The notes under the pieces are model-generated. The model ran no database searches. It saw only the letters and a list, made by a program, of their open reading frames with translations, and was not told the origin of the DNA. Below are positions 21,507 through 36,378 of a stretch of 44,584 nucleotides of DNA, piece by piece (the first letter of the stretch is position 1; every line of letters begins with the position of its first letter). The stretch is from a virus, in the IMG/VR virus record IMGVR_UViG_3300002307_000022, positions 1 through 44,584 of that record; one strand, written 5' to 3'. A program made the position numbers and the translations under genes.

Positions 21507-22661
21507 TTAGCTGCTTCTTTCCTCTAATCTAACCATATTTCTTTCAATAAGTTTTAAATTTTCAATAAAATTATTCTTCTTATTGAGCAACCTATACAGA
21601 TCTAAGTTGTGCTTGCAGATCTTTTCCATTTCTTTTCTAACATTGATTTTTGTTAAATCGTCCATTTTAGCTATTGTGCGTAGATTTTCTATCATAATAG
21701 CTATTCTTTTTTCTAATGGAATATTACAATCATAACTCTCATCTATCCAATCTGAAAAAGTAACATAACCTTTCTCTCTGAGAAATTCTAGTGTTCCAGG
21801 ATTTCCTAATATCATAAAGGGCATACCTATGCTAATCGGCTTATATGATTTTTCACTTATAAAAAAACTTTCGTTATCTACATGAGTTTCGGTAACGATA
21901 TAGATAAATGAATTTTCGCAGAAGCGCATTGGTGTTTTTGCTGTAGGATTAGCACTGCCTATATCTTCAAAATCTAATGTATCATATGTTTGGTTAGCTA
22001 TTGTAGTATCTGGATTATTCATTTTAAATCTCTCGAATAATCTGTTAGATTGTAATGAGTCTTTCCAATTGGCATTTGCCCAAGTATTGTATCCATTCCT
22101 CAATAGATTATTATCTATTATCTTTTGCATCAATATACATCTATGGAGTCGAGGCATCCTGTTGAGGTTTATATAATCTTTTCCTGGTGTATATTTTGTT
22201 AGTATATCTTGTGCGTCAAGGTGTTGCTGCCACTGCTCTACGTAAAGGAATTTAAAAAGATTAGTCCTATTTTTTAGTTTATGATCGCTGCTTATATAAT
22301 AAGTGGGGATCGACGTGTGGAAATAATTAACAAAATAGTCAACTATGTATGCCATGTTAGCATTACCTTCTAGAGGATCTAGAAAAACCGGAACCAGTTT
22401 CCTATTAGTAAACAGCTCTATATAGTCTTCAACAAACTTAACTAATTCATTGATAAATTTGCTTTGATATTCTAAAAATATAGGAAATATATAACTGACA
22501 TTCCTTTCAAAATCCCAAGTAGTATCAACTTCTAGATATTTAAAAAAATGGAATTTATTATTATCATCGATTACATTATCGTTTTCTAGTTGCCAACCTA
22601 CACTCATATTGTCTCTAAACAGTTGGGTTTTTTGGAATTCTGCCAATATCTTAATTTTCAT
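21507..22661 (-). CDS. GT10 (fucosyltransferase)-like GT-B protein
   Basis: LNRMPRLHR, IVTETH..FISEKSYKPI..PFMILG..LREKGYVTF..IDESYD; paralog of 25550-26893. Confidence 0.5.
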   Translation of the reverse strand: MKIKILAEFQKTQLFRDNMSVGWQLENDNVIDDNNKFHFFKYLEVDTTWDFERNVSYIFPIFLEYQSKFINELVKFVEDYIELFTNRKLVPVFLDPLEGNANMAYIVDYFVNYFHTSIPTYYISSDHKLKNRTNLFKFLYVEQWQQHLDAQDILTKYTPGKDYINLNRMPRLHRCILMQKIIDNNLLRNGYNTWANANWKDSLQSNRLFERFKMNNPDTTIANQTYDTLDFEDIGSANPTAKTPMRFCENSFIYIVTETHVDNESFFISEKSYKPISIGMPFMILGNPGTLEFLREKGYVTFSDWIDESYDCNIPLEKRIAIMIENLRTIAKMDDLTKINVRKEMEKICKHNLDLYRLLNKKNNFIENLKLIERNMVRLEERSS

Positions 22662-23400
22662 TTATAATTCCTAATATATGTTCTGCAAATTGCTTATGGG
22701 AAAGAATTCCCTTGTGCATATCGTCCCTTGCTAAGTCTATATCTTTCATATTACCTATTTCTTTAAAATCAAATTTTTCTAACAGTGGTTTTATTTTATC
22801 ATGGAAATCTCGTATCCAACATCTAAAATATACTTCAATATTTTTTTCCTTTAGCAAAACAAATAAAGAATATAGATTCCAATATGTTTTTAATAAGATA
22901 GTCTGTTCAAATAAGATAGAGTGTTCCATAAATGCGATTTGCGATCTATCACTAGGAACAAAATTAGGACCGTGTAGTTGTAGATATTTTTCACAAGACA
23001 TCTGTCTCATCGGATCACTCATATACCAAACCAATTTATCTATTTTAAAATTATCCAACGCCCAAGCCAGGTTAATTATCTGCATATCAGGACCGCTTCC
23101 AGGAACGCCTAAATTAATACAGTGCCAATTATTTCCTAATCCTCGAGTTACTATTTCTGGAAATATATCATTCTGAGACAATCCAACACCAAAAGTTATA
23201 CTGCATCCTACAAAACATATAGTTTTTTCTTTAGGTGTCGAATCATATCTAAATCCATGTTCATTTATTTTATAAGTGAATGGTTCCCAATCTGGTAATA
23301 CTTTTTCAACTGATGTTGTTACATCCGCTTCCTGAGAAGGATGAAATAAACTACAAGGAATATGCGTATCATTAGGATAGCTTGCGTCTAGCACTTTCAT
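22651..23400 (-). CDS. SGNH/GDSL-like hydrolase or acyltransferase
   Basis: VGCSITFG, NLGVPGSG, DLARDDMH. Confidence 0.65.
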   Translation of the reverse strand: MKVLDASYPNDTHIPCSLFHPSQEADVTTSVEKVLPDWEPFTYKINEHGFRYDSTPKEKTICFVGCSITFGVGLSQNDIFPEIVTRGLGNNWHCINLGVPGSGPDMQIINLAWALDNFKIDKLVWYMSDPMRQMSCEKYLQLHGPNFVPSDRSQIAFMEHSILFEQTILLKTYWNLYSLFVLLKEKNIEVYFRCWIRDFHDKIKPLLEKFDFKEIGNMKDIDLARDDMHKGILSHKQFAEHILGIINEN

Positions 23401-24662
23401 AAAAATAAATCCTTTAAAAATGGAAAAACTTCTTTGCTTTTATCATTCCTGATGAGGTCTAATTTAGCTGTCATAGATCGCATCTTGGAAATTTGAGGAG
23501 TTTTATCTTCCGAATTCATATATGAAACAATATTCCTAAACGGGTTAGCATTGATCCTATATAGTCGTTCAATCTCATCTGCATATGCTAAAAGCTTTTC
23601 TGAAACTTGTTCTTTATATTCTGCAGGCAATAACTGACAGTTATAATATTCCGGATGTATTAAATTATTAAGATGGAATGTAGTACTAAAATGATTTTGC
23701 ATTTCTCGTAGGTCAACCATACCAAGTCTTATACATTCTCTATGGAAATCTGGCATATAGTAAACATTCCAAAAGCTTATAGTTGGATGCATACCCCATC
23801 TTATATTTCTACTATTAAATAATCCGCTAGACTTTAGACTATTAAAATTTTCAACTACTTGATTCCAATCTCCGCCCTTGCGTAGATAATTATAACGATC
23901 TCCACAATCATCAATACTTGCCATTAATTCTATGCTATCAAAATGTTTCCACATTTCTAAGAGATCATGTTTTTTATATTTTAATACACCAAAATTTGTG
24001 CTGTATCTTATCTTTATATTGCGTCGATTTTCTTTTATCAATCTTTCTAGAACGCGATAATGTTCGTCAGTTATTAATGGTTCTCCACCAGCAAAATGTA
24101 TGTATTCTACTTTATCAAATAAATTTTCAAAATCTTCTTCAAATGCTTCTACAGTATTCCATATTTTTTTAACTTTGGGCGGAGCTTTGTCACTATCAAT
24201 ATCCCATAATTTTATATAATCATCGTGCCACTGTGTAGAAAATTCAATACCACAAGTCCGACAACGTTGATTACAGATGTTTGAAAACCTAAAATCCCAA
24301 TGCACTAGATTTAATTCGTCAACTGTTCCGTCATCTTTTGTACTTTCTACAATTTCTTTATGCTTGCTTGCATAACTATCATTCATATGAGTACGTAGAC
24401 TTGTAAATCCATCTTCTTCTTTTTCATAGCAGCGACTACAAAAATTATCTGCTGGATTTCCTTCTAACATATCTAACCGTAGCTTTTTCATCTGCTCGCT
24501 ATTCCATACTTCGGCTATTGTTTGAGTTTCCATATTTCCAATAGTTTCGTTAATAGGTGACAGACAACAAGGATTAACTGCTTTGTTGGGCATAAAATGC
24601 ATATGTGTCCACGGAGCCATACAAAAAGTTTTATTTGATTTTAAATTTGGAATTGTTTTCAT
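23397..24662 (-). CDS. radical SAM enzyme with N-terminal twitch/SPASM-like domain
   Basis: FCMAPW..PCC..CSRC precedes CNQRCRTC; FAGGEP; YSTN. Confidence 0.9.
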   Translation of the reverse strand: MKTIPNLKSNKTFCMAPWTHMHFMPNKAVNPCCLSPINETIGNMETQTIAEVWNSEQMKKLRLDMLEGNPADNFCSRCYEKEEDGFTSLRTHMNDSYASKHKEIVESTKDDGTVDELNLVHWDFRFSNICNQRCRTCGIEFSTQWHDDYIKLWDIDSDKAPPKVKKIWNTVEAFEEDFENLFDKVEYIHFAGGEPLITDEHYRVLERLIKENRRNIKIRYSTNFGVLKYKKHDLLEMWKHFDSIELMASIDDCGDRYNYLRKGGDWNQVVENFNSLKSSGLFNSRNIRWGMHPTISFWNVYYMPDFHRECIRLGMVDLREMQNHFSTTFHLNNLIHPEYYNCQLLPAEYKEQVSEKLLAYADEIERLYRINANPFRNIVSYMNSEDKTPQISKMRSMTAKLDLIRNDKSKEVFPFLKDLFL

Positions 24663-24667
24663 ATATT

Positions 24668-24674
24668 AATTTAT
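24668..24674 (-). promoter_or_regulatory. late-like box ATAAATT, probably leaderless
   Basis: 5 nt before ATG 24662; no SD. Confidence 0.4.
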
Positions 24675-24687
24675 TCATTCCCGTAGG

Positions 24688-25575
24688 TTAGTCTGACCAA
24701 AACCATCCCTCTGGTCTACGTTCGTATTCTTCTGCTATATTGGTTTTTTGATATAATAATTGGTGAGGATATACACTGCTCCTGTTAGGATCAGCAGCCC
24801 ACTCGTATAATATCTTTTCCCAAGTATTGTGTGCATCTTGGACTTTAGTTATAGTGTTATTATGAAATTCATATTCAAGGACTGTTTTGATATATTGATA
24901 ATGCTCATTTGGCGAAGGATGTGAATCGCTAAATTTGCTTTCAAATTGTTTCCAAAGACTCTGCGTTTTAGTATCTATCTTGCCATCCCAAAGCACATCA
25001 TAAAAGCTAGGGCGTATCTTAGATAAAGAATCATTAAACGTTTCTTTCAATTTATCAATCATTGTTTTCTTATCTTTATTTAGAAACGTATCGATTAATC
25101 CATAATTATATTGATTAAACACCTTGGTTATATCAATCATAGATAGAAAATGATATTGACAACCTTTGTTTTTTAAGAAATCGTCAGTAGCACTGATCGT
25201 AGCATAATCTCTCAATGCCATACCGGCAGGGTCAGCAAATTTTTCAACCCAATCATCGTTATAAATGTTTTGTGTATAGATATTTCCCGGGCAGATCCAA
25301 TTATCTTCAACATACCTGTCCTCTCTGCATACATTAGTCCAACAAACAATAACTAAATCATCGCTGTTAAATTTAAAAAAAGCATCTGCTTGTATTATCG
25401 TATTAAAAATATATTGATTGCCAGCACCAGCAGTAGCATAATTCCAATAAGGAACCTTAGCTTCTATAGCAACAATCATTGGCCAAGTCATCCATCCGTA
25501 TCTAGTAAAACTACATCCAAATGCAAAAAATCTCTTTATTCCGTTCACATTAAAGGATTGCATTGTATTTTCCAT
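24688..25575 (-). CDS. SGNH/GDSL-like protein
   Basis: FGCSFT, NYATAGAGN, WT..RED, DSHPSP..H. Confidence 0.65.
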   Translation of the reverse strand: MENTMQSFNVNGIKRFFAFGCSFTRYGWMTWPMIVAIEAKVPYWNYATAGAGNQYIFNTIIQADAFFKFNSDDLVIVCWTNVCREDRYVEDNWICPGNIYTQNIYNDDWVEKFADPAGMALRDYATISATDDFLKNKGCQYHFLSMIDITKVFNQYNYGLIDTFLNKDKKTMIDKLKETFNDSLSKIRPSFYDVLWDGKIDTKTQSLWKQFESKFSDSHPSPNEHYQYIKTVLEYEFHNNTITKVQDAHNTWEKILYEWAADPNRSSVYPHQLLYQKTNIAEEYERRPEGWFWSD

Positions 25576-26893
25576 TTAATTGTCCAAATAATATATCAAA
25601 TTTATCTTTATGGTTTTTATTATAAAACAGTTCTCTATTTTCTTTCAATTTATATTTTATCGAATCTAATATGTCATATAGCTGGGATTGTGGCATAGCA
25701 ACCAAACGTTCTACATTATCGCATATCATACTAATCCTTTTTATGAGATCCGGTTCACTATCATATGATTCATCAAACAGTTCTTCAAATGTATGGTATC
25801 CTTGTTCTTTTAGATATCGAATAGTACCTAAAGATCCTAACACTATAAATGGATGTCCAATAGCTATAGGTTTCCATGTTTTCTCCGTAGTCCACAACGT
25901 ATTATATTCATTGTTTGGATAATTTTTGTTTTCACAAGGAGAAAATGTTTCAGTTACTATACTAAAAGCCGAATCATAAAAATGTTTAGAATCGTATCTC
26001 CTATCATCACCGTCAAAAAATTCGTGTCCATCACCATCTAATATAAATTTTTCTGCTTCTAATCTTCTCATTGAGGATATCTTTAATTCTACATCTATCC
26101 GTTGATGATCAACTATACGTTCATCATCAACATTAAACATAAACGGTCCCGGATGTGTACCCCAACTTACATATCCACTATCTATCAATCCTCTAGATAA
26201 TAACTCACTAACTAACCCTGCTCTATGAATACGCTTATTACCATTATAATTTAGGAATATTTTAGATGGTTTATTCCAATTATCGATCTCAAAACTTTCT
26301 CTAAGTTTATCTTTGTCAGACAACAGATGATCGTACAACCTAGCACTGCGGCATTCACTCCCTAGATAACGTGTATAACAGGTCATCTGATGTTTGGGTT
26401 GCCACCAATCTATGCCAAATATCTTAAAACCCTTGAAATATTCTGTATACGTAACGTTTAGATCTCCCAGTACTATGTAAATATTGTCTATTGCTACACC
26501 GTTTTCTATAAATTGGTTTGCAAAATCTTTTATAGGCGAAAATGCCCAACCGTCTGCACCTTCTTCTTGGAACAATATCAAAACTTTTATCATACCTTGT
26601 CTAATAAAATCCAAAGTTAAGTTTGGTATAGTATCTTTGATACTAAACTCAGGACGTATCACTTCTATAGGATAAAATAAATTAGGAACAATACTACCGT
26701 TAGTAAAAATGTTAACAGCGCATCCTTGTGCAATCGCAAGATCATAGAACATTGCTACCGAATTGATATGATTTGTTTTATTTAGATAAGGCAAAAAAGG
26801 AAATTTAATATCTCCGTTTGTAATCTCAAACTCAACTGCACAATTAGGAACTGGACCATACTCAGTTATCTGATCATAATAAAAATTAATCAT
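25550..26893 (-). CDS. GT10-like GT-B protein
   Basis: YNGNKRIHR, IVTET..TEKTWKPI..HPFIVLG..LKEQGYHTF..DESYD. Confidence 0.5.
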   Translation of the reverse strand: MINFYYDQITEYGPVPNCAVEFEITNGDIKFPFLPYLNKTNHINSVAMFYDLAIAQGCAVNIFTNGSIVPNLFYPIEVIRPEFSIKDTIPNLTLDFIRQGMIKVLILFQEEGADGWAFSPIKDFANQFIENGVAIDNIYIVLGDLNVTYTEYFKGFKIFGIDWWQPKHQMTCYTRYLGSECRSARLYDHLLSDKDKLRESFEIDNWNKPSKIFLNYNGNKRIHRAGLVSELLSRGLIDSGYVSWGTHPGPFMFNVDDERIVDHQRIDVELKISSMRRLEAEKFILDGDGHEFFDGDDRRYDSKHFYDSAFSIVTETFSPCENKNYPNNEYNTLWTTEKTWKPIAIGHPFIVLGSLGTIRYLKEQGYHTFEELFDESYDSEPDLIKRISMICDNVERLVAMPQSQLYDILDSIKYKLKENRELFYNKNHKDKFDILFGQLNGKYNAIL

Positions 26894-28388
26894 ATGTTGC
26901 TAATGGATCTTCTATGTTCCTATCTTTAGGAGTCAATATCCACCCTTCTTTTTTCGCTAATTCTTGTAGCTGTATATCCGAATCCCACTGTTGGCTACTA
27001 TCACCATTTACTAAATTGTTAGATCCTGTATTCGTGATAGGTAATTTATCAAACCAATCAGTTAATATTTCAGGAAATACATAGATACTCTTATCACGAC
27101 GCTGATCATATTGGGTATAGAATGTTTTAAAGTCTCTCCATAATGTTATCTTATTGCTTGTGTGTCGGTGTGGTGCATCAACTGTATCTAAATAGTCTAT
27201 CAATCTCTCCATAGAGGCTAACTCAAACTCGTGCCAAAGAGGATTATGTTTGTTATTATTATACCAAGTTTCTAGTTTATCCTTACAGTAACTCTTTATG
27301 TGATCAGGTAGTGCTAAAGGACTTTGAAAACTAGGAAACCTCAATAGATTTAAACTTACACTAGGATTCTTAGTTCCAGACAAGATCTTTAAGCTATAAA
27401 TTTCATCTAAAAATTCAGTAATACTAAAGAGACAGAGGCTGTTTATAGTCATCATCACGTGTAAACCTTTTAGATTAGCTTGTGTACCCAATCGTATTAC
27501 ATTACGTTTCCACATATCATAATCAAATCCGTCCCTTATATACTCTGCTTGAGGACCAAATGCTTCGCAACTTGTATACAAGTGGAAGTGCTTAACTTTT
27601 TTGCTCTTTTCAATGAGCTTATCTATGATATCATCTTTAGCTATGAGGTTACTGTTAATAGCAAATCTCATATCGCTGTCTTGTGCGTTAAACCAATCAA
27701 ATAATTTCCAAGTATTAGCACTCATTAGAGGTTCACCGCCAGTGATTCGCAGTTCTTCCAAACTTTCACTTAGCCCATTATCCCACCATTTCCAAAAGGC
27801 TTCTACATATGGATTGTCTTCATCTCGTTTAAATGGTTCAGCCCAGCTGCCATCTTGCTTAAAAGCATTGGCTCCGTCGCTTACTAGATTTTTATATACC
27901 CCATTCTGCTTGATATCACGTGCCCAAGTAGTACTAAAACTAGCATTACAATAGCTACAAGCTAAGTTGCATACCCTATCAAAGCTTATTTCAAGTGTCT
28001 TTAGCTGTTCATTGTGAGTCCAGGATTGTTTAGCTATAGTTTCTATCTCTTCATCACTATATATAATGGTTTTAAACACACGATCGCTTACTGTATCTTT
28101 GCCTATATCTTCAATCTTCCAGCAATATTCACACTCTGCAGGTCGTTCACCTTCCTGCATCATTTTGCGCATTAGCTTCTTATGCTTAGTATTGTGTATG
28201 GCTGTATAACTTTCTTGTACTTCCTCTAATGGGATCTTGTGTGCTGGCGGGTGATGACAGCTAGCAGTAGTGCCGCTACCTAACCAAGTAGTGGCATTTA
28301 GCCACTTGGCGGCACAGAAGCTTTTGCTCTTAGTATCAATAACACGGTCTCTATATTCAATCAGCGTTTCGTTGGGGGTTTTAGGCAT
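26886..28388 (-). CDS. radical SAM enzyme with N-terminal twitch domain
   Basis: FCAAKW..SCHHP..CEYCW; CNLACSYC; ITGGEP; INSN. Confidence 0.9.
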   Translation of the reverse strand: MPKTPNETLIEYRDRVIDTKSKSFCAAKWLNATTWLGSGTTASCHHPPAHKIPLEEVQESYTAIHNTKHKKLMRKMMQEGERPAECEYCWKIEDIGKDTVSDRVFKTIIYSDEEIETIAKQSWTHNEQLKTLEISFDRVCNLACSYCNASFSTTWARDIKQNGVYKNLVSDGANAFKQDGSWAEPFKRDEDNPYVEAFWKWWDNGLSESLEELRITGGEPLMSANTWKLFDWFNAQDSDMRFAINSNLIAKDDIIDKLIEKSKKVKHFHLYTSCEAFGPQAEYIRDGFDYDMWKRNVIRLGTQANLKGLHVMMTINSLCLFSITEFLDEIYSLKILSGTKNPSVSLNLLRFPSFQSPLALPDHIKSYCKDKLETWYNNNKHNPLWHEFELASMERLIDYLDTVDAPHRHTSNKITLWRDFKTFYTQYDQRRDKSIYVFPEILTDWFDKLPITNTGSNNLVNGDSSQQWDSDIQLQELAKKEGWILTPKDRNIEDPLATYD

Positions 28389-29754
28389 TCCATTCCTCTA
28401 AAAATTTTGCATACTCTGGAAATGTAGCTGAGAAGTCTGTTTTCCTGCGCTTATCATATTCGTTTATATACTTTACAAAGTCCTGTTTAGCAACGGTTGT
28501 ATTTTCGTCCTGTAATAGAAAATCACAAAATCTCTTTATTTGATCCCATTCTTCTAAATATATACGAGCAAATCTCTCAGTAGTGTGATATTTTAAGCAG
28601 CTCTCTGATTTGTTAAGTATCTCTGCAACGTATTGCTCTCTTATATCTCTAGGCAATAGTGTAGCACTTAGATAAGTAGGCCATCTTAAAAAATTAATAG
28701 ACAATGGTACACGATTGTACTCAAACGCCTTGTTAAATTCTTTCCTAAATTCCATAATCACATCTATAAAATCAACCATAGTAGGTAGACTTAGTATGTT
28801 TATAGTGGTCATTACAGCTACATTTACTTCAGTTTGTTCTAAAACCTTCCTAACATTTCGAGACCATAACTCATAATCTAACCCAAACCTAGAATACTCT
28901 GCTTGTATACCTGTACTTTCTAAGCTAGTATAAACATCTATTTTTTTTACACATCCTTTTATATTGTTTATTTCAGCTATAAATCTATCTATCAATTTGT
29001 CATCAACACATAGATTGCTGTTTATAGCTATCTCTAGCCCAGGTTTCGGATTTTCTTTTATATAGGTAAAGACTTTCCATAAATCTTTACTCATTAAAGG
29101 TTCGCCTCCGGTAATCCTAAACACCTTAAGTGTGTCAATAGCAGCCGGAAACCATTTCCAAAAAGCATCAACATAGGGATTGTGTTCATTATTCTTGTAA
29201 GGGTATCGACCTATCTGTTTAAGCCATCCTAGATCGTGGTTTCCTTGAGTAGTAGGGTAGGGGCCAAACTGCTTTATCTCCTCTAACCACTTGCTGCTAA
29301 CTTCAGAGCTACAATAAGAACACTTTAAGTTGCAAGCATTGCTAAAACTAACTTCTAAGTAAGTTGGGTTAATGTCTAAATTAGGATCAGATTTTGCTAT
29401 TTTATCTACATCGTTCCAAGCCCAATGATCTGCTGTTTTATAATGCCTATCTGAGAAATAGTCTTTTCCTAAATCTTCTACTTTCCAACAATAGTCACAC
29501 TCTGCTGGACGCTTGCCTGCTAACATTAACTTACGCTGTTCTTTTTTAAACGAAGAATTATGTAATGCAGCAGGATTAGCTAGTACTTCATTTACAGGAA
29601 TCTTGTGGGGAGCAGGATGATGGCAACTATGGTTATACCCGTTTTGTAAATAAAGGGTAGTCTGTAACCATTTAGCAGCACAAAACGACGGACTTATAGT
29701 ATCTATTATCTGACGTTTGTCCTTGAGTATCTGGATTTTTTCTTCATTGCTCAT
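28381..29754 (-). CDS. radical SAM enzyme with N-terminal twitch domain (tandem paralog of 26886)
   Basis: FCAAKW..SCHHP..CDYCW; CNLKCSYC; ITGGEP; ATG 29754 is the likely start. Confidence 0.9.
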   Translation of the reverse strand: MSNEEKIQILKDKRQIIDTISPSFCAAKWLQTTLYLQNGYNHSCHHPAPHKIPVNEVLANPAALHNSSFKKEQRKLMLAGKRPAECDYCWKVEDLGKDYFSDRHYKTADHWAWNDVDKIAKSDPNLDINPTYLEVSFSNACNLKCSYCSSEVSSKWLEEIKQFGPYPTTQGNHDLGWLKQIGRYPYKNNEHNPYVDAFWKWFPAAIDTLKVFRITGGEPLMSKDLWKVFTYIKENPKPGLEIAINSNLCVDDKLIDRFIAEINNIKGCVKKIDVYTSLESTGIQAEYSRFGLDYELWSRNVRKVLEQTEVNVAVMTTINILSLPTMVDFIDVIMEFRKEFNKAFEYNRVPLSINFLRWPTYLSATLLPRDIREQYVAEILNKSESCLKYHTTERFARIYLEEWDQIKRFCDFLLQDENTTVAKQDFVKYINEYDKRRKTDFSATFPEYAKFLEEWNA

Positions 29755-29814
29755 ATATAAGATAATTATCAATGATTTGCCAGCATAGTTAGCGGTCCTG
29801 GTTATAGAAAACAC

Positions 29815-30788: not shown

Positions 30789-31934
30789 ATGTCAATACAG
30801 TTACGTCGTGGAACTAACGCAGAAAGAGGATCTATTACACCATTAGAAGGTGAGTTAATATACGCTACTGATACTAAACTAATGTATGTTGGAGATGGTG
30901 TAACTTTAGGAGGTGTGCAAGTTTCGGGCTCAGGTGGATTAAGCGGATCGTTAGCTGGATTAGTTGATCTAGGTAACTATAGCATAACAGGAACCGGTCT
31001 AACTATTAACGGTAATACTGGAGATATAACAGCTACATCTTTTAATGGTGTAATTAATGCATCGTTAGGTAGTAATCTTACAATTGGTACTCGATCTGTA
31101 ACAAACGGAACTAACTTAACATTAAATGGCGCAACTGGAAAAATCGAAGCTGCAACATTATCTATAAGTGGCGGGTTGGCAGCAAATTTATCTACAGGCG
31201 CACATTCAATAACTAATGGTACTAATTTAACACTAAATGGTACAACTGGAAACATATCAACTGCAACACTAAATGTTAGTGATAGTGTAACTGCAAATAA
31301 ATTATATAGCGATAATATAACAACAGATCAGCTTGTATCGTACGGAACGATAGAAATCGGTGATGCAGACAATAATAATCAATTATTAATACATTGGGAA
31401 AAAGAAAATGCAACTATTCCGTTTATGAAGGTAGTTGGAGTTAATAAATCAACATTTGAAACACCTCGTATAGTTGCATATTCATCTAGAGGTTCACTTG
31501 CAGCACCCACTGCTAATATGATCGGTGATGCTCAAATAAAAATTGAAAGTTTTGGGTATGACGGTTCAACCTATTTAGGATGTGCCGGAATAGTACTTAA
31601 CATTGACCAAAGCGGCAATGTTTCTTCAGGACATGTTCCGGGCAGTATAGTATTTTATACTCAAACCGATGGGACAAGTAATACTGTAAAAGCTATGTCA
31701 TTTGATGCTAGCGGAAGACTAGCGATCAATAAAATCACTGCTGCCACAGCTACCTTAGATGTAAACGGAACCGCAAAGTTTGCTGGATTTGTTCAATTTG
31801 GTAGTTTAACTGGAACAGAAAGAACTGCGCTTACTCCAGTCAACGGAATGGTAATATATAATACCACTTCAAACAGATTTGAAGGTTATCAGAACGGTGG
31901 ATGGATACATTTAGATAATGGTACTGCTGCGTAA
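30789..31934 (+). CDS. tail-fibre/virion decoration protein
   Basis: N-terminal IQLRRGT..P.EGEL.Y.TDT..YVGDG fibre motif; Gly/Thr/Asn repeats; C-terminal GMVIYNTTSNRFEGY..GW. Confidence 0.8.
   Translation: MSIQLRRGTNAERGSITPLEGELIYATDTKLMYVGDGVTLGGVQVSGSGGLSGSLAGLVDLGNYSITGTGLTINGNTGDITATSFNGVINASLGSNLTIGTRSVTNGTNLTLNGATGKIEAATLSISGGLAANLSTGAHSITNGTNLTLNGTTGNISTATLNVSDSVTANKLYSDNITTDQLVSYGTIEIGDADNNNQLLIHWEKENATIPFMKVVGVNKSTFETPRIVAYSSRGSLAAPTANMIGDAQIKIESFGYDGSTYLGCAGIVLNIDQSGNVSSGHVPGSIVFYTQTDGTSNTVKAMSFDASGRLAINKITAATATLDVNGTAKFAGFVQFGSLTGTERTALTPVNGMVIYNTTSNRFEGYQNGGWIHLDNGTAA
30951..31280 (+). repeat. three imperfect ~37-aa fibre repeats
   Basis: LAGLVDLGNYSITG.GLTINGNTG / LGSNLTIGTRSVTNGTNLTLNGATG / LAANLSTGAHSITNGTNLTLNGTTG. 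Confidence 0.75.
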
Positions 31935-33218: not shown

Positions 33219-33809
33219 TTAGCACCATCTTGGCTTTTCATTCAATTTTTCTAAAAATTTATCTGGAAATAATTGCCATACTGTTTGTACTGTTCCCCTA
33301 TATTCTACATCTTTAATGCGTTTCATTTGCCCGGTTTTTTCCATAGCAGGTCCAAAAATACGGTGTACAAGTCGCTGTGTACCTGCAGAATTTTCATTGC
33401 TAGTGATATAAAGATTAGAGCCGCTAGGTGCCCATTCTATACATACCGGTATTAAAAATTGAGATGTTATATTTTGATGAGTAGTTATTTGATTAACGGT
33501 CCTAAGTCCATTTATTTTTAAATAATCAGATTGTCTTTGTATAGTTTCAGGTAAAAGATCTGAAAATACACAAGTCCTAGTAGCTATTCGATAACTATTT
33601 GGCCCCATAATGTCATCGAAGCTATGTGCTGCTACACTTCCTAATGCTATATCATCATTATAAAGTATCCAAACTTGCTTTTCACGTTCGTTTTTAAAAC
33701 AATCAATTAACATTGCTTGACTTGAATTATTAACAAATCCTTTAATTTCGGCATGTTTATAAAATTCAGATAAATCTAAATCTAAAGACCAAGGAACTAC
33801 TTTATACAT
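33219..33809 (-). CDS. putative GNAT-fold transferase
   Basis: WILYNDDIALGSVAAH, YRIATRTCVF, LYITSN secondary-structure pattern. Confidence 0.4.
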   Translation of the reverse strand: MYKVVPWSLDLDLSEFYKHAEIKGFVNNSSQAMLIDCFKNEREKQVWILYNDDIALGSVAAHSFDDIMGPNSYRIATRTCVFSDLLPETIQRQSDYLKINGLRTVNQITTHQNITSQFLIPVCIEWAPSGSNLYITSNENSAGTQRLVHRIFGPAMEKTGQMKRIKDVEYRGTVQTVWQLFPDKFLEKLNEKPRWC

Positions 33810-34497
33810 TCCAGTTATTCTTTTTAATTATTTCTATAATTTTATCTGCTATTAAACAATTACCTTCGTCCGTAATATTGTTAGGGTTAGGATCGGTATT
33901 GTAATGAGTTTTAACTAATTCGGCTATTTCTTTTGAAACTATTCCAGATTTAAAATTAAACCAAGGCATTGCTATATGATACGGATAATCTGAAATATGT
34001 ATTGTATATGGTATCTTAGCAGAACAATATGTATCAACCATTAATGTTGCTGCTTCAAATCTATTTCTTTGTAGGTCCGGATGATGAAGATAATTTTTAT
34101 AGTAATGCATACATTCAATAAAAATTTTAGGAGTTTCAAATACTTCTTTTATTTTTCCATAAGTAAAAAATTCATTTTCAAACATCTGTTGATCAATTTG
34201 TATATCTGCATCGCTTTCAGACCATAATATTTTAGATTTATTTTCTGGAATAGTATCTACAGTGATATCTCTGTTACATTTAGGTAAGAACATATACCTA
34301 GGACCGTGTTGATGGAATATTATAGCAATGTCGAGTTTTTTAGTTTTTTTAAGATCAAATAAAACACGCTCTTCTGATCCCTGGGCAACCCCAACATTAA
34401 CGATATTACAATTTAATCTTTCTTTTACTTGGTCAATAAAACTCTTTGGATTTCCGTACCAAGATGCAGCACTATGTCCATAAAATCCAATATTCAT
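33802..34497 (-). CDS. SGNH-like protein lacking the block V His
   Basis: GFYGHSA, NVGVAQGSEER; PNNITDEGN in place of DxxH. Confidence 0.5.
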   Translation of the reverse strand: MNIGFYGHSAASWYGNPKSFIDQVKERLNCNIVNVGVAQGSEERVLFDLKKTKKLDIAIIFHQHGPRYMFLPKCNRDITVDTIPENKSKILWSESDADIQIDQQMFENEFFTYGKIKEVFETPKIFIECMHYYKNYLHHPDLQRNRFEAATLMVDTYCSAKIPYTIHISDYPYHIAMPWFNFKSGIVSKEIAELVKTHYNTDPNPNNITDEGNCLIADKIIEIIKKNNWNV

Positions 34498-34507
34498 TTG
34501 TGTTCTC

Positions 34508-34522
34508 CATAAATATATTTAA
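34508..34522. promoter_or_regulatory. abutting oppositely oriented late-like boxes (CATAAATA on +, TTAAATA on -)
   Basis: The + box points to the tRNA-like gene; the - box points to the 34497 operon. Confidence 0.5.
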
Positions 34523-34525
34523 TAA

Positions 34526-34600
34526 GCGGCTCGTAGCATAGAGGTTTATGTGCTAGATGACCAATTTAGAGACGGAGGTTCGAATCCCCCAGCCGCTCCA
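34526..34600 (+). tRNA. non-canonical tRNA-Gly-like gene (anticodon ACC, encoded CCA)
   Basis: GCGGCT(C)G/CAGCCGC acceptor stem, U73, CCA; D arm GCAT/ATGT with GG; anticodon arm CTAGA-TGACCAA-TTTAG; 4-nt variable loop AGAC; GG(A)GG-TTCGAAT-CCCC T arm. Confidence 0.75.
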
Positions 34601-35300
34601 TATCTTTAACTTTTTCTATAAAATCTACCGGATAGTTGCTTCTAAAGCTTTCCCAACATAACTGATCTAATACAGAAAATGGTTGAGGTACGTCCCATTT
34701 GATTCCTAAATTATCTAAATGTTTTTTCATTTCTATTTGCCGATTAGTATGTATATGACTTTCAACATCTTTAATACTAACTAAAGATTCAGTATTGTGA
34801 TACGTAAAAAAATAATTTATACTTTTTAATTTTTCATTTACTATAAAATAGCTGCTAGGGTGCATAGAATATTTGTGCAGCCCTAAATTCTTATGAGCTT
34901 GAATAATGTCTAACATTTGTTGTTGCCAGTCAGGTAATATCTCATCAAATGAACAATAGTTTTTATCCAAACTCCGTTGCCAAAAATCCGGGCCTGCTAT
35001 TTCTAAATATATTTTCTTTTCTTTATGATCAATATCTAAGATCTTAGGGATCATATCTGGATAGTGTTTTTCCATTAAAGATAAAAATGTCACTTCTCTC
35101 TGCCATTTTTCTTCCATTAATCTAGGATCTATTACTTGGTTTTGCCCAGCGTGATATACTCCATCATTATAATACCACTGTACGAAAACGTTGAGATCAG
35201 TTGATACTAAACTTGTATAGATTAAATTATTTCTCCAAGGAGAGTTACCCGGAACAGTATTGTAATAATACATATATTCTAAATTTCTAAATGTTTTCAT
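34566..35300 (-). CDS. protein-kinase-like/APH-fold protein with atypical catalytic loop
   Basis: WQREV.FL, IPKILDID..KIYLE, KYSMHPSSYF, KSINYF; 3' end overlaps the tRNA-like gene antisense. Confidence 0.55.
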   Translation of the reverse strand: MKTFRNLEYMYYYNTVPGNSPWRNNLIYTSLVSTDLNVFVQWYYNDGVYHAGQNQVIDPRLMEEKWQREVTFLSLMEKHYPDMIPKILDIDHKEKKIYLEIAGPDFWQRSLDKNYCSFDEILPDWQQQMLDIIQAHKNLGLHKYSMHPSSYFIVNEKLKSINYFFTYHNTESLVSIKDVESHIHTNRQIEMKKHLDNLGIKWDVPQPFSVLDQLCWESFRSNYPVDFIEKVKDMERLGDSNLRL

Positions 35301-35328: not shown

Positions 35329-36378
35329 ATGTTAAAATTAAATGATACTATTACTCTATGTGAACATTGTTACCGGCACGTTCCTGCTGAAAAATTTGAG
35401 AGAGATGGTAGTATATGGTTAGGTAAAATTTGTCCAGCCCACGGATATATTGAAAATTTAATAGAACCCGATGCTGAGTTTTATATGAATTATGATTATA
35501 AAATTAAACTACCAAAAGGATATTTTATAGACATTACCAATCGATGTAATCTTAAATGTCAGCATTGTTATCAAGTACCAGATAATATGTCTACAGATAG
35601 ATCACTCAATGCTATATTAGATCAAATAATGTCTTGGGAAGACGATGCATACGGACTAGCATTAGTTGGTGCTGAACCAACTATGCGTAAAGATTTAGAT
35701 ATATTAGTTAAATCTGTTTTTGAATTGCCTATAAAAACTCGAAGAACAATAATACTTTCAAATGGAGTTCGATTATCTGATATAGATTATGCTAGAAAAT
35801 TTGTAGGAATTGAAAAACTAATTTGGACTTTTGGATTAAATCATCCAGATTATCACGGATCAAAAATAAGAAACAAACAGATGATTGGTATTGAAAATTG
35901 TATTAAATTAGGATTAACTATAAAAGATATTAGTTACACGTTAGATGATATGTCTCAAATAGAATATTGTTTAGAAGAGATACAAGAGCTTTATAAAAAA
36001 ACTTCTGCAAATTTTAGAATAAGATGTAGTGCTGATATCGGCAGAAATCCAAAACAGCCACAAATTTATTTAAGCCAGTTAGTACAAAGAACAAAAGAAA
36101 TAGCAGCTAAAAATAATTGGTCTATTACTCCGTTAGAAAAAGATGGCATTAGAGCGCATTATCCATTTATGATTAACGGTATATATGTTAAGATTATACA
36201 GTGGCCAGATTCTGGTACATTAGATTTAGAAGAGATACAAACCGAAGCGTGGGCAGATATATTGCCAGATTATCCAATTTCGCCATTGGTGCATCAGGTT
36301 ATACTAAGAGATGCATTATTGAATAAGGGATTACCGTTACCAGATTTAGTTCCTGAAAAATATAGGAGACATCCATGA
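35329..36378 (+). CDS. radical SAM enzyme with N-terminal CxxC..CxxH metal ribbon (Tes/GDGT-MAS/MJ0619-like N-terminus)
   Basis: TLCEHC...KICPAHG; DITNRCNLKCQHCY; GAEPT; SNG. Confidence 0.8.
   Translation: MLKLNDTITLCEHCYRHVPAEKFERDGSIWLGKICPAHGYIENLIEPDAEFYMNYDYKIKLPKGYFIDITNRCNLKCQHCYQVPDNMSTDRSLNAILDQIMSWEDDAYGLALVGAEPTMRKDLDILVKSVFELPIKTRRTIILSNGVRLSDIDYARKFVGIEKLIWTFGLNHPDYHGSKIRNKQMIGIENCIKLGLTIKDISYTLDDMSQIEYCLEEIQELYKKTSANFRIRCSADIGRNPKQPQIYLSQLVQRTKEIAAKNNWSITPLEKDGIRAHYPFMINGIYVKIIQWPDSGTLDLEEIQTEAWADILPDYPISPLVHQVILRDALLNKGLPLPDLVPEKYRRHP

What the first reader, a model, noticed from the sequence alone, without database searches (positions are those of the whole stretch)
34508..34600. 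tRNA-Gly-like RNA that looks chargeable but not usable in translation
Seen: a 75-nt cloverleaf with encoded CCA and its own late-like box. It keeps the bacterial GlyRS identity set (G1-C72, C2-G71, G3-C70, U73, C35, C36). It has G at the invariant U33, an ACC anticodon that is very rare in bacteria, a bulged A in the T-stem region read by EF-Tu, and a bulged C at the base of the acceptor stem. The defects fall on decoding and EF-Tu elements and spare aminoacylation elements, like the non-proteinogenic tRNA-Gly of staphylococcal cell-wall synthesis. Inference: a dedicated glycyl donor for the surrounding tailoring enzymes, or a decoy for anticodon nucleases.
Basis: partly seen in the sequence, partly recalled or inferred. 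Interest (0 to 1): 0.82.

Follow-up and report, generated by a model that had tools for sequence, protein, structure and literature searches.

The report
Odd phage tRNA paired with esterase-fold gene
The flagged sequence is a real, conserved but rule-breaking glycine-type tRNA of uncultured giant phages that nearly always sits beside one particular esterase-fold gene, so it probably works with that protein, not as an ordinary tRNA for translation.

Summary
Window 34526-34600 (+) is a 75-nt cloverleaf with an encoded CCA and the full bacterial Gly identity set. It also has G33, an ACC anticodon, one extra nucleotide in the 5' acceptor strand and an A51/C63 mismatch in the T stem. ARAGORN rejects it at default settings; Rfam scores it 29.3 bits against a cut-off of 29.

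It is not decay. I collected 44 distinct relatives from viral and metagenome contigs. They share the same 'chassis' (6-bp acceptor helix, a non-G nucleotide, invariant G8, GGAGG/CCCCC T arm), show stem covariation, and 32 of 43 lack U33. In 387 other tRNAs from the same loci, 382 have U33 and none has G33. The same chassis also carries Tyr-, Pro- and other anticodon arms.

The new result is linkage to ORF231 (33802-34497, -), an SGNH/GDSL-fold protein. A homolog lies within 100 nt in 40 of 45 loci found by DNA pattern alone, in three different gene arrangements. Distant ORF231 homologs carry only an acceptor/T-arm-like minihelix.

Best reading (0.4): a trans-acting, probably glycylated, non-decoding RNA partner of the SGNH-fold protein, with the aminoacyl ester as the likely business end. 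The function is inferred, not shown. A GNAT-fold gene follows ORF231.

The scan's notes show this RNA element only on this window, not on other DNA.

The parts
34526..34600 (+). Non-canonical tRNA-Gly-like RNA, 75 nt, with encoded CCA. It has an extra nucleotide C at 34532, G33 at 34559, the ACC anticodon at 34560-34562, and A51 (34576) opposite C63 (34588).
   Evidence: family and covariation
34509..34515 (+). ATAAATA box resembling a T4-type late promoter, 11 nt upstream of G1.
   Evidence: Sequence. TAAATA lies within 30 nt upstream of 18/44 family members against 16/379 other tRNAs; TATAAATA 7/44 against 0/379.
33802..34497 (-). ORF231, an SGNH/GDSL-fold protein. Ser9 in the GHS motif is kept, the block V His is lost, and a basic LKKTKK helix is conserved. 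It is divergent from the RNA, 28 nt away, and is the gene consistently linked to this RNA family.
   Evidence: AF2 pLDDT 88; VIA Z 12.7, all top hits SGNH; Foldseek; conservation; linkage
33219..33809 (-). ORF196, a GNAT-fold protein whose start overlaps the ORF231 stop by 8 nt. Homologs also occur without ORF231 or the RNA in related phages.
   Evidence: AF2 pLDDT 85; Foldseek 114 hits at E<=1e-3, top-ranked hits all GNAT; VIA Z 11.9; distribution
34566..35300 (-). ORF244, upstream neighbour on the minus strand. Its last 35 nt run antisense through the 3' part of the RNA gene. Homologs align only to about residue 231-234, so the tail is probably incidental.

Best explanation
The element is a functional, trans-acting, non-canonical tRNA(Gly)-like RNA. 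It belongs to a family of phage 'chassis' tRNAs whose conserved core is the acceptor/T-arm helix: six acceptor pairs, one unpaired non-G nucleotide, an invariant G, a GGAGG/CCCCC T stem with A51 opposite C63, and an encoded NCCA.

It is the dedicated RNA partner of the adjacent SGNH/GDSL-fold protein ORF231.

Proposed mechanism, all inferred:
1. The RNA is made from its own late-type promoter.
2. Host GlyRS glycylates it, because the full identity set is kept.
3. The altered anticodon loop (G33) and the altered acceptor/T junction keep it largely out of decoding.
4. The SGNH-fold protein recognises the special acceptor/T helix and acts on the aminoacyl ester at the CCA end. Most likely its conserved serine takes the glycyl group and passes it to an acceptor made by the surrounding tailoring-enzyme island. 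Here the next gene encodes a GNAT-fold protein.

Shown here: the structure, its conservation, and the gene linkage. Inferred: charging, exclusion from translation, and the chemistry.
For: 1. Real, selected RNA. There are 44 distinct homologs with covarying stems and conserved irregularities. Position 7 is C, U or A and never G. G8 and C65 never vary.

2. The anticodon loop is released from decoding rules. Position 33 is G 20, U 11, A 6, C 6. In 387 other tRNAs of the same loci, 382 have U33 and none has G33. A34 recurs in the family but occurs almost only in Arg-ACG among the controls.

3. The Gly identity set (U73, G1-C72, C2-G71, G3-C70, C35, C36; PMC9976931) is intact although position 34 varies between U and A. 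The Pro-type member L092 has C1-G72, A73, G35 G36 G37. The Tyr-type member L107 has A73 and GUA. So charging determinants follow the anticodon type on one chassis.

4. Several related phages also carry a canonical tRNA-Gly(UCC).

5. Linkage. An ORF231 homolog lies within 100 nt in 40 of 45 loci found by DNA pattern alone. It occurs in three arrangements: gene then RNA, RNA then gene, and divergent. All 21 loci found through the protein alone have a tRNA-like element within about 100 nt.

6. Within the +/-4 kb fetched, ORF231 plus the RNA are present or absent together between ORF244 and ORF196 homologs.

7. Seven distant ORF231 homologs keep only a minihelix like the acceptor/T arm: a covarying outer stem, a 5' bulge and an inner GGAG(G) stem. 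It abuts the 5' end of a normal tRNA. This points to function at the acceptor end, not the anticodon.

8. ORF231 has the fold of serine esterases and acyltransferases, and the nucleophile serine is invariant. The matches include the O-acetyltransferases PatB and OatA.

9. Precedents for tRNA-borne glycine used outside translation: the phage Mu Mom protein (PMC13219725) and the staphylococcal Fem enzymes with non-proteogenic tRNA-Gly (PMC7826273).

10. The TAAATA box is enriched at a fixed distance upstream.
Against: - No expression, charging, EF-Tu or binding data exist. All phages involved are uncultured.
- No SGNH-fold enzyme is known to use aminoacyl-tRNA.
- ORF231 has lost the canonical block V His, so it may not be catalytic.
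- A51/C63 also occurs in otherwise canonical phage tRNAs.
- In two contexts (L035, L049) the RNA sits in an ordinary tRNA array with no ORF231 nearby. In L071 and L086 the homolog is 1.4 kb away.
- The phage uses GGU (38%) and GGA (42%) heavily, so a decoding role for ACC or UCC is not excluded.
- Most Tyr-type and GUGAAA-type members have U73 or C73, not the A73 that TyrRS and PheRS prefer. Charging is therefore uncertain for those members.
- The invariance of the T arm is partly imposed by my search patterns. Members found through the protein alone do show the same T arm.
Confidence: 0.4

Rival explanations
1. It is a specialised but translating tRNA-Gly. Its altered anticodon loop (G33) and acceptor/T junction make it resistant to host tRNA-targeting defences, such as anticodon nucleases, tail-cleaving nucleases or acetylating toxins. 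Linkage to ORF231 would reflect co-inheritance in a cassette, or ORF231 being a helper such as a repair or deacylase enzyme.
For: - Phage tRNAs are known to escape anticodon nucleases through loop mutations (PMC10264068).
- The L-shape determinants U8, A14, G18 G19 and the T54-C56 loop are intact.
- The Gly identity set is kept.
- GGU and GGA are the main Gly codons.
- Members L035 and L049 sit inside ordinary tRNA arrays.
- Some members have U33 and fully canonical loops: L107, L092, L078.
- A51/C63 is tolerated in otherwise canonical phage tRNAs.
Against: - Related phages already encode a canonical tRNA-Gly(UCC).
- Anticodon loops of 9 nt, 6 nt or with G, A or C at position 33 are poor decoders, yet they are the majority.
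- Position 34 flips between U and A without constraint.
- The minihelix-only relatives have no anticodon at all.
- It does not explain the three-arrangement linkage to ORF231.
Confidence: 0.25
2. It is a cis-acting or genomic-architecture element, not a working RNA partner. The tRNA-like fold would serve as an RNase P/Z processing ('punctuation') or stabilising signal for the ORF231 transcript, or as the recombination or insertion site that moves the ORF231 cassette.
For: - In most gene-then-RNA loci the ORF231-homolog reading frame ends inside the element, with the stop 8-41 nt into it.
- In distant relatives a plain hairpin replaces it.
- ORF231 plus the element behave as an insertion/deletion unit between ORF244 and ORF196 homologs.
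Against: - The element is also found upstream of the gene on the same strand, and divergent on the opposite strand as in this window. In the divergent arrangement it cannot be part of the ORF231 mRNA in sense.
- A processing signal or recombination site does not need a full aaRS identity set, an encoded CCA, G18 G19 and T-loop tertiary elements, or its own TAAATA box.
- No direct repeats or integrase were seen. I did not search for them specifically.
Confidence: 0.13
3. It is a decoy or sponge. An abundant, late-expressed, chargeable but non-decoding tRNA-Gly mimic would soak up a host tRNA-directed toxin, for example a TacT-type GNAT that reads U73/G71 of Gly-tRNA-Gly, or an anticodon nuclease. 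The SGNH esterase might recycle the modified decoy.
For: - U73 and G71 are almost invariant in the family, even on non-Gly anticodon arms.
- TacT identity is specified by U73 and G71 (PMC9976931).
- A late-type promoter box is present.
- Phage tRNAs counteract tRNA-targeting immunity (PMC10264068, PMC11555353).
Against: - An anticodon-nuclease decoy should keep a native-like loop, but the loop is the least native part.
- The Pro-type member has a completely different acceptor stem on the same chassis.
- The cassette sits in biosynthetic islands or tRNA arrays, not among recognisable anti-defence genes.
- There is no direct evidence.
Confidence: 0.12
4. It is a decaying tRNA pseudogene, or the irregularities are assembly or sequencing indels.
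For: - ARAGORN default rejects it.
- Its Rfam score is borderline.
- It lies antisense to flanking genes and overlaps the end of ORF244.
Against: - The same irregularities recur in 44 distinct sequences from independent assemblies, with compensatory stem changes.
- The T loop, D loop and CCA are intact.
Confidence: 0.03

Closest known systems
Non-proteogenic tRNA-Gly isoacceptors of Staphylococcus (NP1-3) used by FmhB/FemA/FemB (PMC7826273)
   Same: - It is an extra tRNA-Gly paralog kept beside canonical tRNA-Gly.
- The GlyRS identity set is retained.
- The deviations lie in parts read by the translation machinery.
- A dedicated transferase partner is proposed.
   Different: - The staphylococcal species change the T loop (UGC/UGU for UUC) and the D/T determinants, and they keep a 7-bp acceptor stem. 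Here UUC and G18 G19 are kept. The changes are G33, an extra 5' acceptor-strand nucleotide and A51/C63.
- The linked protein has an SGNH fold, not a Fem-type GNAT fold.
- The chassis also carries Tyr- and Pro-type anticodon arms.
- The setting is a phage, not a cellular genome.
- Function is untested.
Phage Mu Mom: a GNAT that transfers glycine from Gly-tRNA-Gly to adenine N6 in DNA (PMC13219725)
   Same: - A phage uses tRNA-borne glycine for a non-translational modification late in infection.
- A GNAT-fold gene (ORF196) lies immediately after ORF231 here.
   Different: - Mom uses all host tRNA-Gly isoacceptors and encodes no tRNA of its own.
- ORF196 has no detectable sequence family (Pfam) and is only generically GNAT.
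- ORF196 homologs occur without the RNA.
- The tightly linked gene is the SGNH-fold one.
Phage tRNAs with anticodon-loop substitutions that evade anticodon nucleases (PMC10264068)
   Same: It is a phage-encoded tRNA with non-standard anticodon-loop nucleotides, alongside or instead of host species.
   Different: - Those tRNAs are otherwise canonical and decode. Here U33 itself is replaced and loop sizes vary.
- The acceptor/T junction is altered.
- Minihelix-only relatives exist.
- A specific protein gene is linked.
SGNH/GDSL-fold acyl- and aminoacyl-transferases (PatB and OatA O-acetyltransferases; DltD of the D-alanylation pathway, the latter from my own knowledge)
   Same: - The fold matches (Z 10-12.7) and the nucleophile serine is conserved.
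- These enzymes move an ester- or thioester-borne acyl group onto a hydroxyl through an acyl-serine intermediate. That is the chemistry proposed for ORF231 on an aminoacyl-tRNA ester.
   Different: - None is known to take its acyl group from tRNA.
- ORF231 lacks the block V Asp-x-x-His and has other invariant His/Asp residues (H62, H167, D155).
- It has no signal peptide or membrane context.

Membership tests
Canonical elongator tRNA (Rfam RF00005 / ARAGORN) | Detected by standard tRNA models | tested here: inconclusive
   Rfam scores 29.3 bits against a gathering score of 29. ARAGORN default finds none and calls it only at a relaxed threshold.
Canonical elongator tRNA (Rfam RF00005 / ARAGORN) | 7-bp acceptor stem with a 2-nt connector to the D stem | tested here: not met
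   Eight nucleotides precede U8. Only six pair with 66-71 of the alignment. The extra nucleotide is conserved as C, U or A in 44/44.
Canonical elongator tRNA (Rfam RF00005 / ARAGORN) | U33 in a 7-nt anticodon loop | tested here: not met
   G33 here. 32 of 43 family members lack U33, against 5 of 387 control tRNAs.
Canonical elongator tRNA (Rfam RF00005 / ARAGORN) | Tertiary-core nucleotides (U8, A14, G18 G19, T54 Psi55 C56, A58) | tested here: met
   All are present and conserved in the alignment.
Bacterial GlyRS substrate (tRNA-Gly identity) | U73, G1-C72, C2-G71, G3-C70, C35, C36 | tested here: met
   Read from the sequence. The identity set is from PMC9976931.
Bacterial GlyRS substrate (tRNA-Gly identity) | Actual glycylation | not testable with these tools
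   Needs an in vitro charging assay or acylation-sensitive sequencing.
Staphylococcal-type non-proteogenic tRNA-Gly | Coexists with proteogenic tRNA-Gly of the same anticodon | tested here: inconclusive
   Met in the relatives L031, L032, L033, L091 and L093. This record is only about 40% complete and shows no other tRNA.
Staphylococcal-type non-proteogenic tRNA-Gly | T loop UGC/UGU in place of UUC; altered D/T determinants (PMC7826273) | tested here: not met
   The T loop is UUCGAAU and G18 G19 are present.
Staphylococcal-type non-proteogenic tRNA-Gly | Weak EF-Tu-GTP and ribosome binding | not testable with these tools
   There is only the indirect A51/C63 and G33 argument. A51/C63 also occurs in canonical-looking phage tRNAs.
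Staphylococcal-type non-proteogenic tRNA-Gly | Fem-family (GNAT-type) aminoacyl-transferase partner | tested here: inconclusive
   The linked gene has an SGNH fold. The neighbouring ORF196 has a generic GNAT fold with no family match.
Mom-like tRNA-dependent DNA modification | Mom-family GNAT enzyme | tested here: inconclusive
   ORF196 has a GNAT fold but no Pfam family at E<=1. I made no direct comparison with Mom.
SGNH/GDSL hydrolase superfamily (for ORF231) | SGNH alpha/beta/alpha fold | tested here: met
   VIA Z 12.7, rmsd 3.1-3.6 over 144-155 residues, and all top 50 hits are SGNH. Foldseek agrees.
SGNH/GDSL hydrolase superfamily (for ORF231) | Catalytic Ser (block I), Gly (II), Asn (III), His (V) | tested here: inconclusive
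   Ser9 and Gly36/Gly40 are invariant. Block III has His62. Block V reads PNN..EGN without a His. Other invariant residues are H167 and D155. No Pfam hit.

The most novel reading that the evidence does not exclude
Uncultured giant aquatic phages carry a two-gene cassette that defines a new kind of tRNA-dependent transferase system. One gene encodes a ribosome-excluded aminoacyl-carrier RNA, either a 'chassis' tRNA or a bare acceptor/T minihelix, that host synthetases charge. The other encodes an SGNH-fold enzyme that recognises the special acceptor/T helix and moves the amino acid onto a phage-made target such as DNA, a glycan or a protein. The system would diversify simply by swapping the identity of the carrier tRNA (Gly, Tyr, Pro and others).
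Probability: 0.28. Interest if true: 0.9.

Novelty: new variant of a known kind. Interest (0 to 1): 0.72.

Why it matters
Dedicated non-translational tRNAs are known from very few systems, the staphylococcal cell-wall tRNA-Gly species being the classic case. Phage use of charged tRNA for chemistry outside translation was shown only recently, for the Mu Mom protein.

If the best reading holds, this family would add three things:
- the first phage-encoded dedicated carrier tRNA;
- a new protein fold (SGNH) among enzymes that handle aminoacyl-tRNA;
- a simple structural rule for how a cell-independent element keeps a chargeable tRNA out of translation: a bulged acceptor/T junction and loss of U33.

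It also matters for annotation. Standard tRNA finders miss or mislabel these genes. Gene callers extend neighbouring ORFs through them; 'GSNPP' tails in database proteins are translated T arms.

Even if the RNA does decode, a conserved G33 tRNA with a 6-bp acceptor helix would still be an unusual object for tRNA biology.

Tried and rejected
- Reverse strand as the tRNA: only the + strand matches the tRNA model and gives a proper T loop.
- Alternative registers. I tried G-1 (His-like), an 8/4 or 8/5 Sec- or allo-tRNA-like stem split, and an upstream base pairing with U73. None fits the 3' tail length or the homologs (worked by hand).
- Cultured-phage relatives: none by DNA and none by ORF231 protein.
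- Bacterial or archaeal genomes: the 3'-half pattern hits only ordinary tRNAs or chance sites, with no family member.
- Pfam and PHROGs for ORF231, ORF244, ORF196 and their neighbours: no hits. PDB sequence search: nothing. ESM Atlas: only viral hypothetical proteins.
- Paralogs of ORF231 in the 145-kb record, by tblastn and by a family HMM: none.
- Similarity between the conserved ORFs downstream of the element in other phages and the window's ORF164: not significant, and those ORFs are absent from this record.
- Thermodynamic support from the single sequence: z = -0.9, uninformative.
- Codon usage does not discriminate: GGA 42%, GGU 38%.
- A literature search for SGNH plus aminoacyl-tRNA plus phage found nothing relevant.
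- My first Rfam batch over loci exceeded the size limit. I replaced it with my own covariance model.

Full report
**What is at the coordinates.** The window is the first 44.6 kb of a 145-kb viral record that CheckV rates about 40% complete. It encodes a family B DNA polymerase, many radical SAM enzymes and other phage-type genes.

At 34526-34600 on the + strand lies a 75-nt cloverleaf.
- G1-C72, C2-G71, G3-C70, G4-C69, C5-G68 and U6-A67 pair.
- An extra C (34532) and a G (34533) follow, then U8 and A9.
- The D arm carries G18 G19.
- The anticodon arm is CUAGA / U-G-A-C-C-A-A / UUUAG.
- The variable loop is 4 nt.
- The T arm is GGAGG-UUCGAAU-CCCCC, followed by U73 and an encoded CCA.

So position 33 is G, the anticodon is ACC, A51 faces C63, and the 5' acceptor strand has one nucleotide too many. 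ARAGORN at default settings reports nothing. At a relaxed threshold it calls tRNA-Gly(acc) at exactly these coordinates. The Rfam tRNA model scores 29.3 bits against a gathering score of 29. It is the only tRNA hit in the 145 kb.

**It is a conserved family, not decay.** Loci fetched through the neighbouring proteins and through DNA patterns of the 3' half gave 44 distinct related sequences, mostly from freshwater and marine viral and metagenome contigs. No bacterial or archaeal species genome holds one. No cultured phage does either.

On 34 aligned class I members the cloverleaf is 90% paired, against 40-51% when partners are slid. All five anticodon-stem pairs, two acceptor pairs and a D-stem pair change on both sides. 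RNAalifold finds the same fold unaided.

The irregularities are the conserved part.
- The extra nucleotide is C, U or A and never G.
- The following G and C65 are invariant.
- A51/C63 is invariant.
- Position 33 is G in 20, A in 6, C in 6 and U in only 11.

Among 387 other distinct tRNAs in the same loci, 382 have U33, none has G33, and A34 is almost confined to Arg-ACG. A caveat: my DNA patterns fixed much of the T arm, so its invariance is partly by construction. However, members found only through the protein show the same arm.

The window's ACC is a local variant. Its closest relatives, with ORF231 64-81% identical, have UCC. A34 appears in several separate subgroups.

**The chassis is not glycine-specific.** The same acceptor/T architecture carries several anticodon-arm types:
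- Gly-type arms (U73, NCC);
- class II Tyr-type arms (GUA, mostly C33; L107 has U33 and A73);
- a Pro-type (L092: a wholly different acceptor sequence with C1-G72, A73, AGG and G37);
- a type with a 9-nt loop NGUGAAAYN;
- a further type, L116.

For the Gly-, Pro- and one Tyr-type, the synthetase identity elements listed in PMC9976931 match the anticodon type. That is what one expects of RNAs that are charged.

Several phages carry a canonical tRNA-Gly(UCC) as well. All tRNAs of these phages encode CCA, so the encoded CCA is not special.

**Linkage to an SGNH-fold gene.** ORF231 (33802-34497, minus strand) starts 28 nt from the RNA and is divergent from it. It has no Pfam or PHROG match. It folds confidently (pLDDT 88) into an SGNH/GDSL esterase/acyltransferase fold: VIA Z 12.7 with all top 50 hits SGNH, and Foldseek agrees. 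Its homologs keep Ser9 in a GHS motif, two glycines and a basic LKKTKK helix, but they lack the block V histidine.

Of 45 element-bearing loci found by DNA pattern alone, 40 have an ORF231 homolog within 100 nt. One has too little flank to tell. Two have the homolog 1.4 kb away. Two (L035, L049) are in plain tRNA arrays without it.

The pair occurs in three arrangements:
- gene then RNA on one strand (most loci);
- RNA then gene (L052, L058, L070, L092);
- divergent (this window, L036-L041, L080, L084).

In relatives whose ORF244 and ORF196 homologs are adjacent, both ORF231 and the RNA are missing within the +/-4 kb fetched. The two therefore come and go together.

All 21 loci found from the protein alone have a tRNA-like element within about 100 nt. 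Fourteen have the chassis. Seven distant ones have a GC-rich hairpin that looks like the acceptor/T helix alone: a covarying 6-7-bp outer stem, a 1-3-nt 5' bulge and an inner GGAG(G) stem. It sits directly against the 5' end of an ordinary-architecture tRNA. RNase P cleavage there would leave the hairpin with a discriminator-like 3' end; this step is an inference.

**Other anatomy.**
- A TAAATA box lies within 30 nt upstream of 18 of 44 elements, clustered at -10 to -16. The figure is 16 of 379 for other tRNAs. TATAAATA occurs in 7 of 44 against 0 of 379. The window has ATAAATA at 34509-34515. This fits a T4-type late promoter that would start transcription near the mature 5' end, which is an inference.
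- In most gene-then-RNA loci the ORF231-homolog frame ends inside the RNA gene.
- In the window the last 35 nt of ORF244 run antisense through the RNA gene. Homologs stop aligning before that.
- ORF196, which overlaps the ORF231 stop, is a generic GNAT-fold protein with no sequence family. Its homologs exist without the cassette.
- The cassette recurs next to the same island of radical SAM and unassigned enzymes in L028, L032, L034 and L036-L041. Elsewhere it sits in tRNA arrays, followed by two conserved small ORFs.

**Interpretation.** The evidence for a trans-acting RNA whose business end is the acceptor/T helix, working with ORF231, comes from several observations:
- the acceptor/T helix is conserved;
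- the anticodon loop is free to vary;
- synthetase identity sets are retained;
- minihelix-only relatives exist;
- the linkage survives inversion.

An aminoacyl-tRNA is an ester, and SGNH enzymes are serine esterases and acyltransferases. The most economical mechanism is therefore that ORF231 handles the glycyl ester, either transferring it to a target made by the neighbouring enzymes or hydrolysing it. There are precedents for glycine drawn from Gly-tRNA-Gly outside translation: the phage Mu Mom protein (PMC13219725) and the staphylococcal Fem enzymes with their non-proteogenic tRNAs (PMC7826273). The determinants here differ from both. I put this reading at 0.4.

The rivals are:
- a defence-resistant but translating tRNA (0.25; compare PMC10264068);
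- a cis-acting processing or mobility element (0.13);
- a decoy for tRNA-directed toxins (0.12);
- a pseudogene or assembly artefact (0.03).

No charging, EF-Tu, expression or binding data exist. Codon usage does not discriminate.

**Verdict.** This is a new variant of a known kind (dedicated, non-canonical tRNA). It has a previously unreported RNA-protein gene pair and a testable mechanism.

Noticed in passing
L095:2179-2207, L096:2197-2227, L102:2203-2236, L105:2319-2348, L110:2343-2379: GC-rich hairpins sit directly after distant ORF231 homologs and look like an acceptor/T-arm minihelix. They have a covarying outer stem, a 1-3-nt 5' bulge and an inner GGAG(G)...CCC(Y) stem. Each abuts the 5' end of a normal-architecture tRNA.
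   Followed up: partly
L102:2235-2320, L104:2426-2511, L109:2439-2528, L110:2381-2468: Class II (long variable arm, G73) tRNAs next to ORF231 homologs carry anticodons UCA (reads UGA), UCG, CUU and CAU. They may be suppressor or recoding tRNAs on a Ser-like body.
   Followed up: no
L019:4758-5180 and 5168-5686, and 11 other loci: Two conserved small ORFs (about 140 and 172 aa, no Pfam hit) follow the element in 12 gene-then-RNA loci. The second has an H-x-D...H pattern suggestive of a 2OG/Fe(II) oxygenase. They are absent from this 145-kb record.
   Followed up: partly
database proteins P0035 (N-terminus) and P0050 (C-terminus): Gene callers have extended ORF231 homologs through the RNA gene. 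This gives spurious 'GGSNPP' peptides that are translated T arms.
   Followed up: partly
L020, L024, L025, L028, L034, L048, L050, L056 and other gene-then-RNA loci: The ORF231-homolog reading frame ends at a stop codon 8-41 nt inside the tRNA-like gene. RNase P cleavage of a co-transcript would therefore leave a non-stop mRNA. The consequence is unexplained.
   Followed up: partly
window 30789-31934 (+): A 381-aa protein has a major tropism determinant N-terminal domain (Mtd_N, E 4.8e-11). This suggests a receptor-binding protein of the type diversified by diversity-generating retroelements. I did not look for a reverse transcriptase or template repeat.
   Followed up: no
window 21507-29814 (-) and 35329-36378 (+): There are five radical SAM proteins. 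One has a SPASM domain and one (35329-36378) has an HMPTM-type N-terminal zinc ribbon. They are interleaved with unassigned ORFs and form a large tailoring island around the cassette.
   Followed up: no
window 34498-34525: The 28-nt spacer between the ORF231 start and the RNA 5' end contains the palindrome AAATATATTT. A TAAATA hexamer therefore reads on both strands, which could mean back-to-back late-type promoters.
   Followed up: no
L111, L112, L113, L120, L125, L129, L131: Otherwise canonical phage tRNAs (7-bp acceptor, no ORF231 nearby) also carry the GGAGG/CCCCC T stem with A51 opposite C63. This mismatch alone is therefore not diagnostic.
   Followed up: yes
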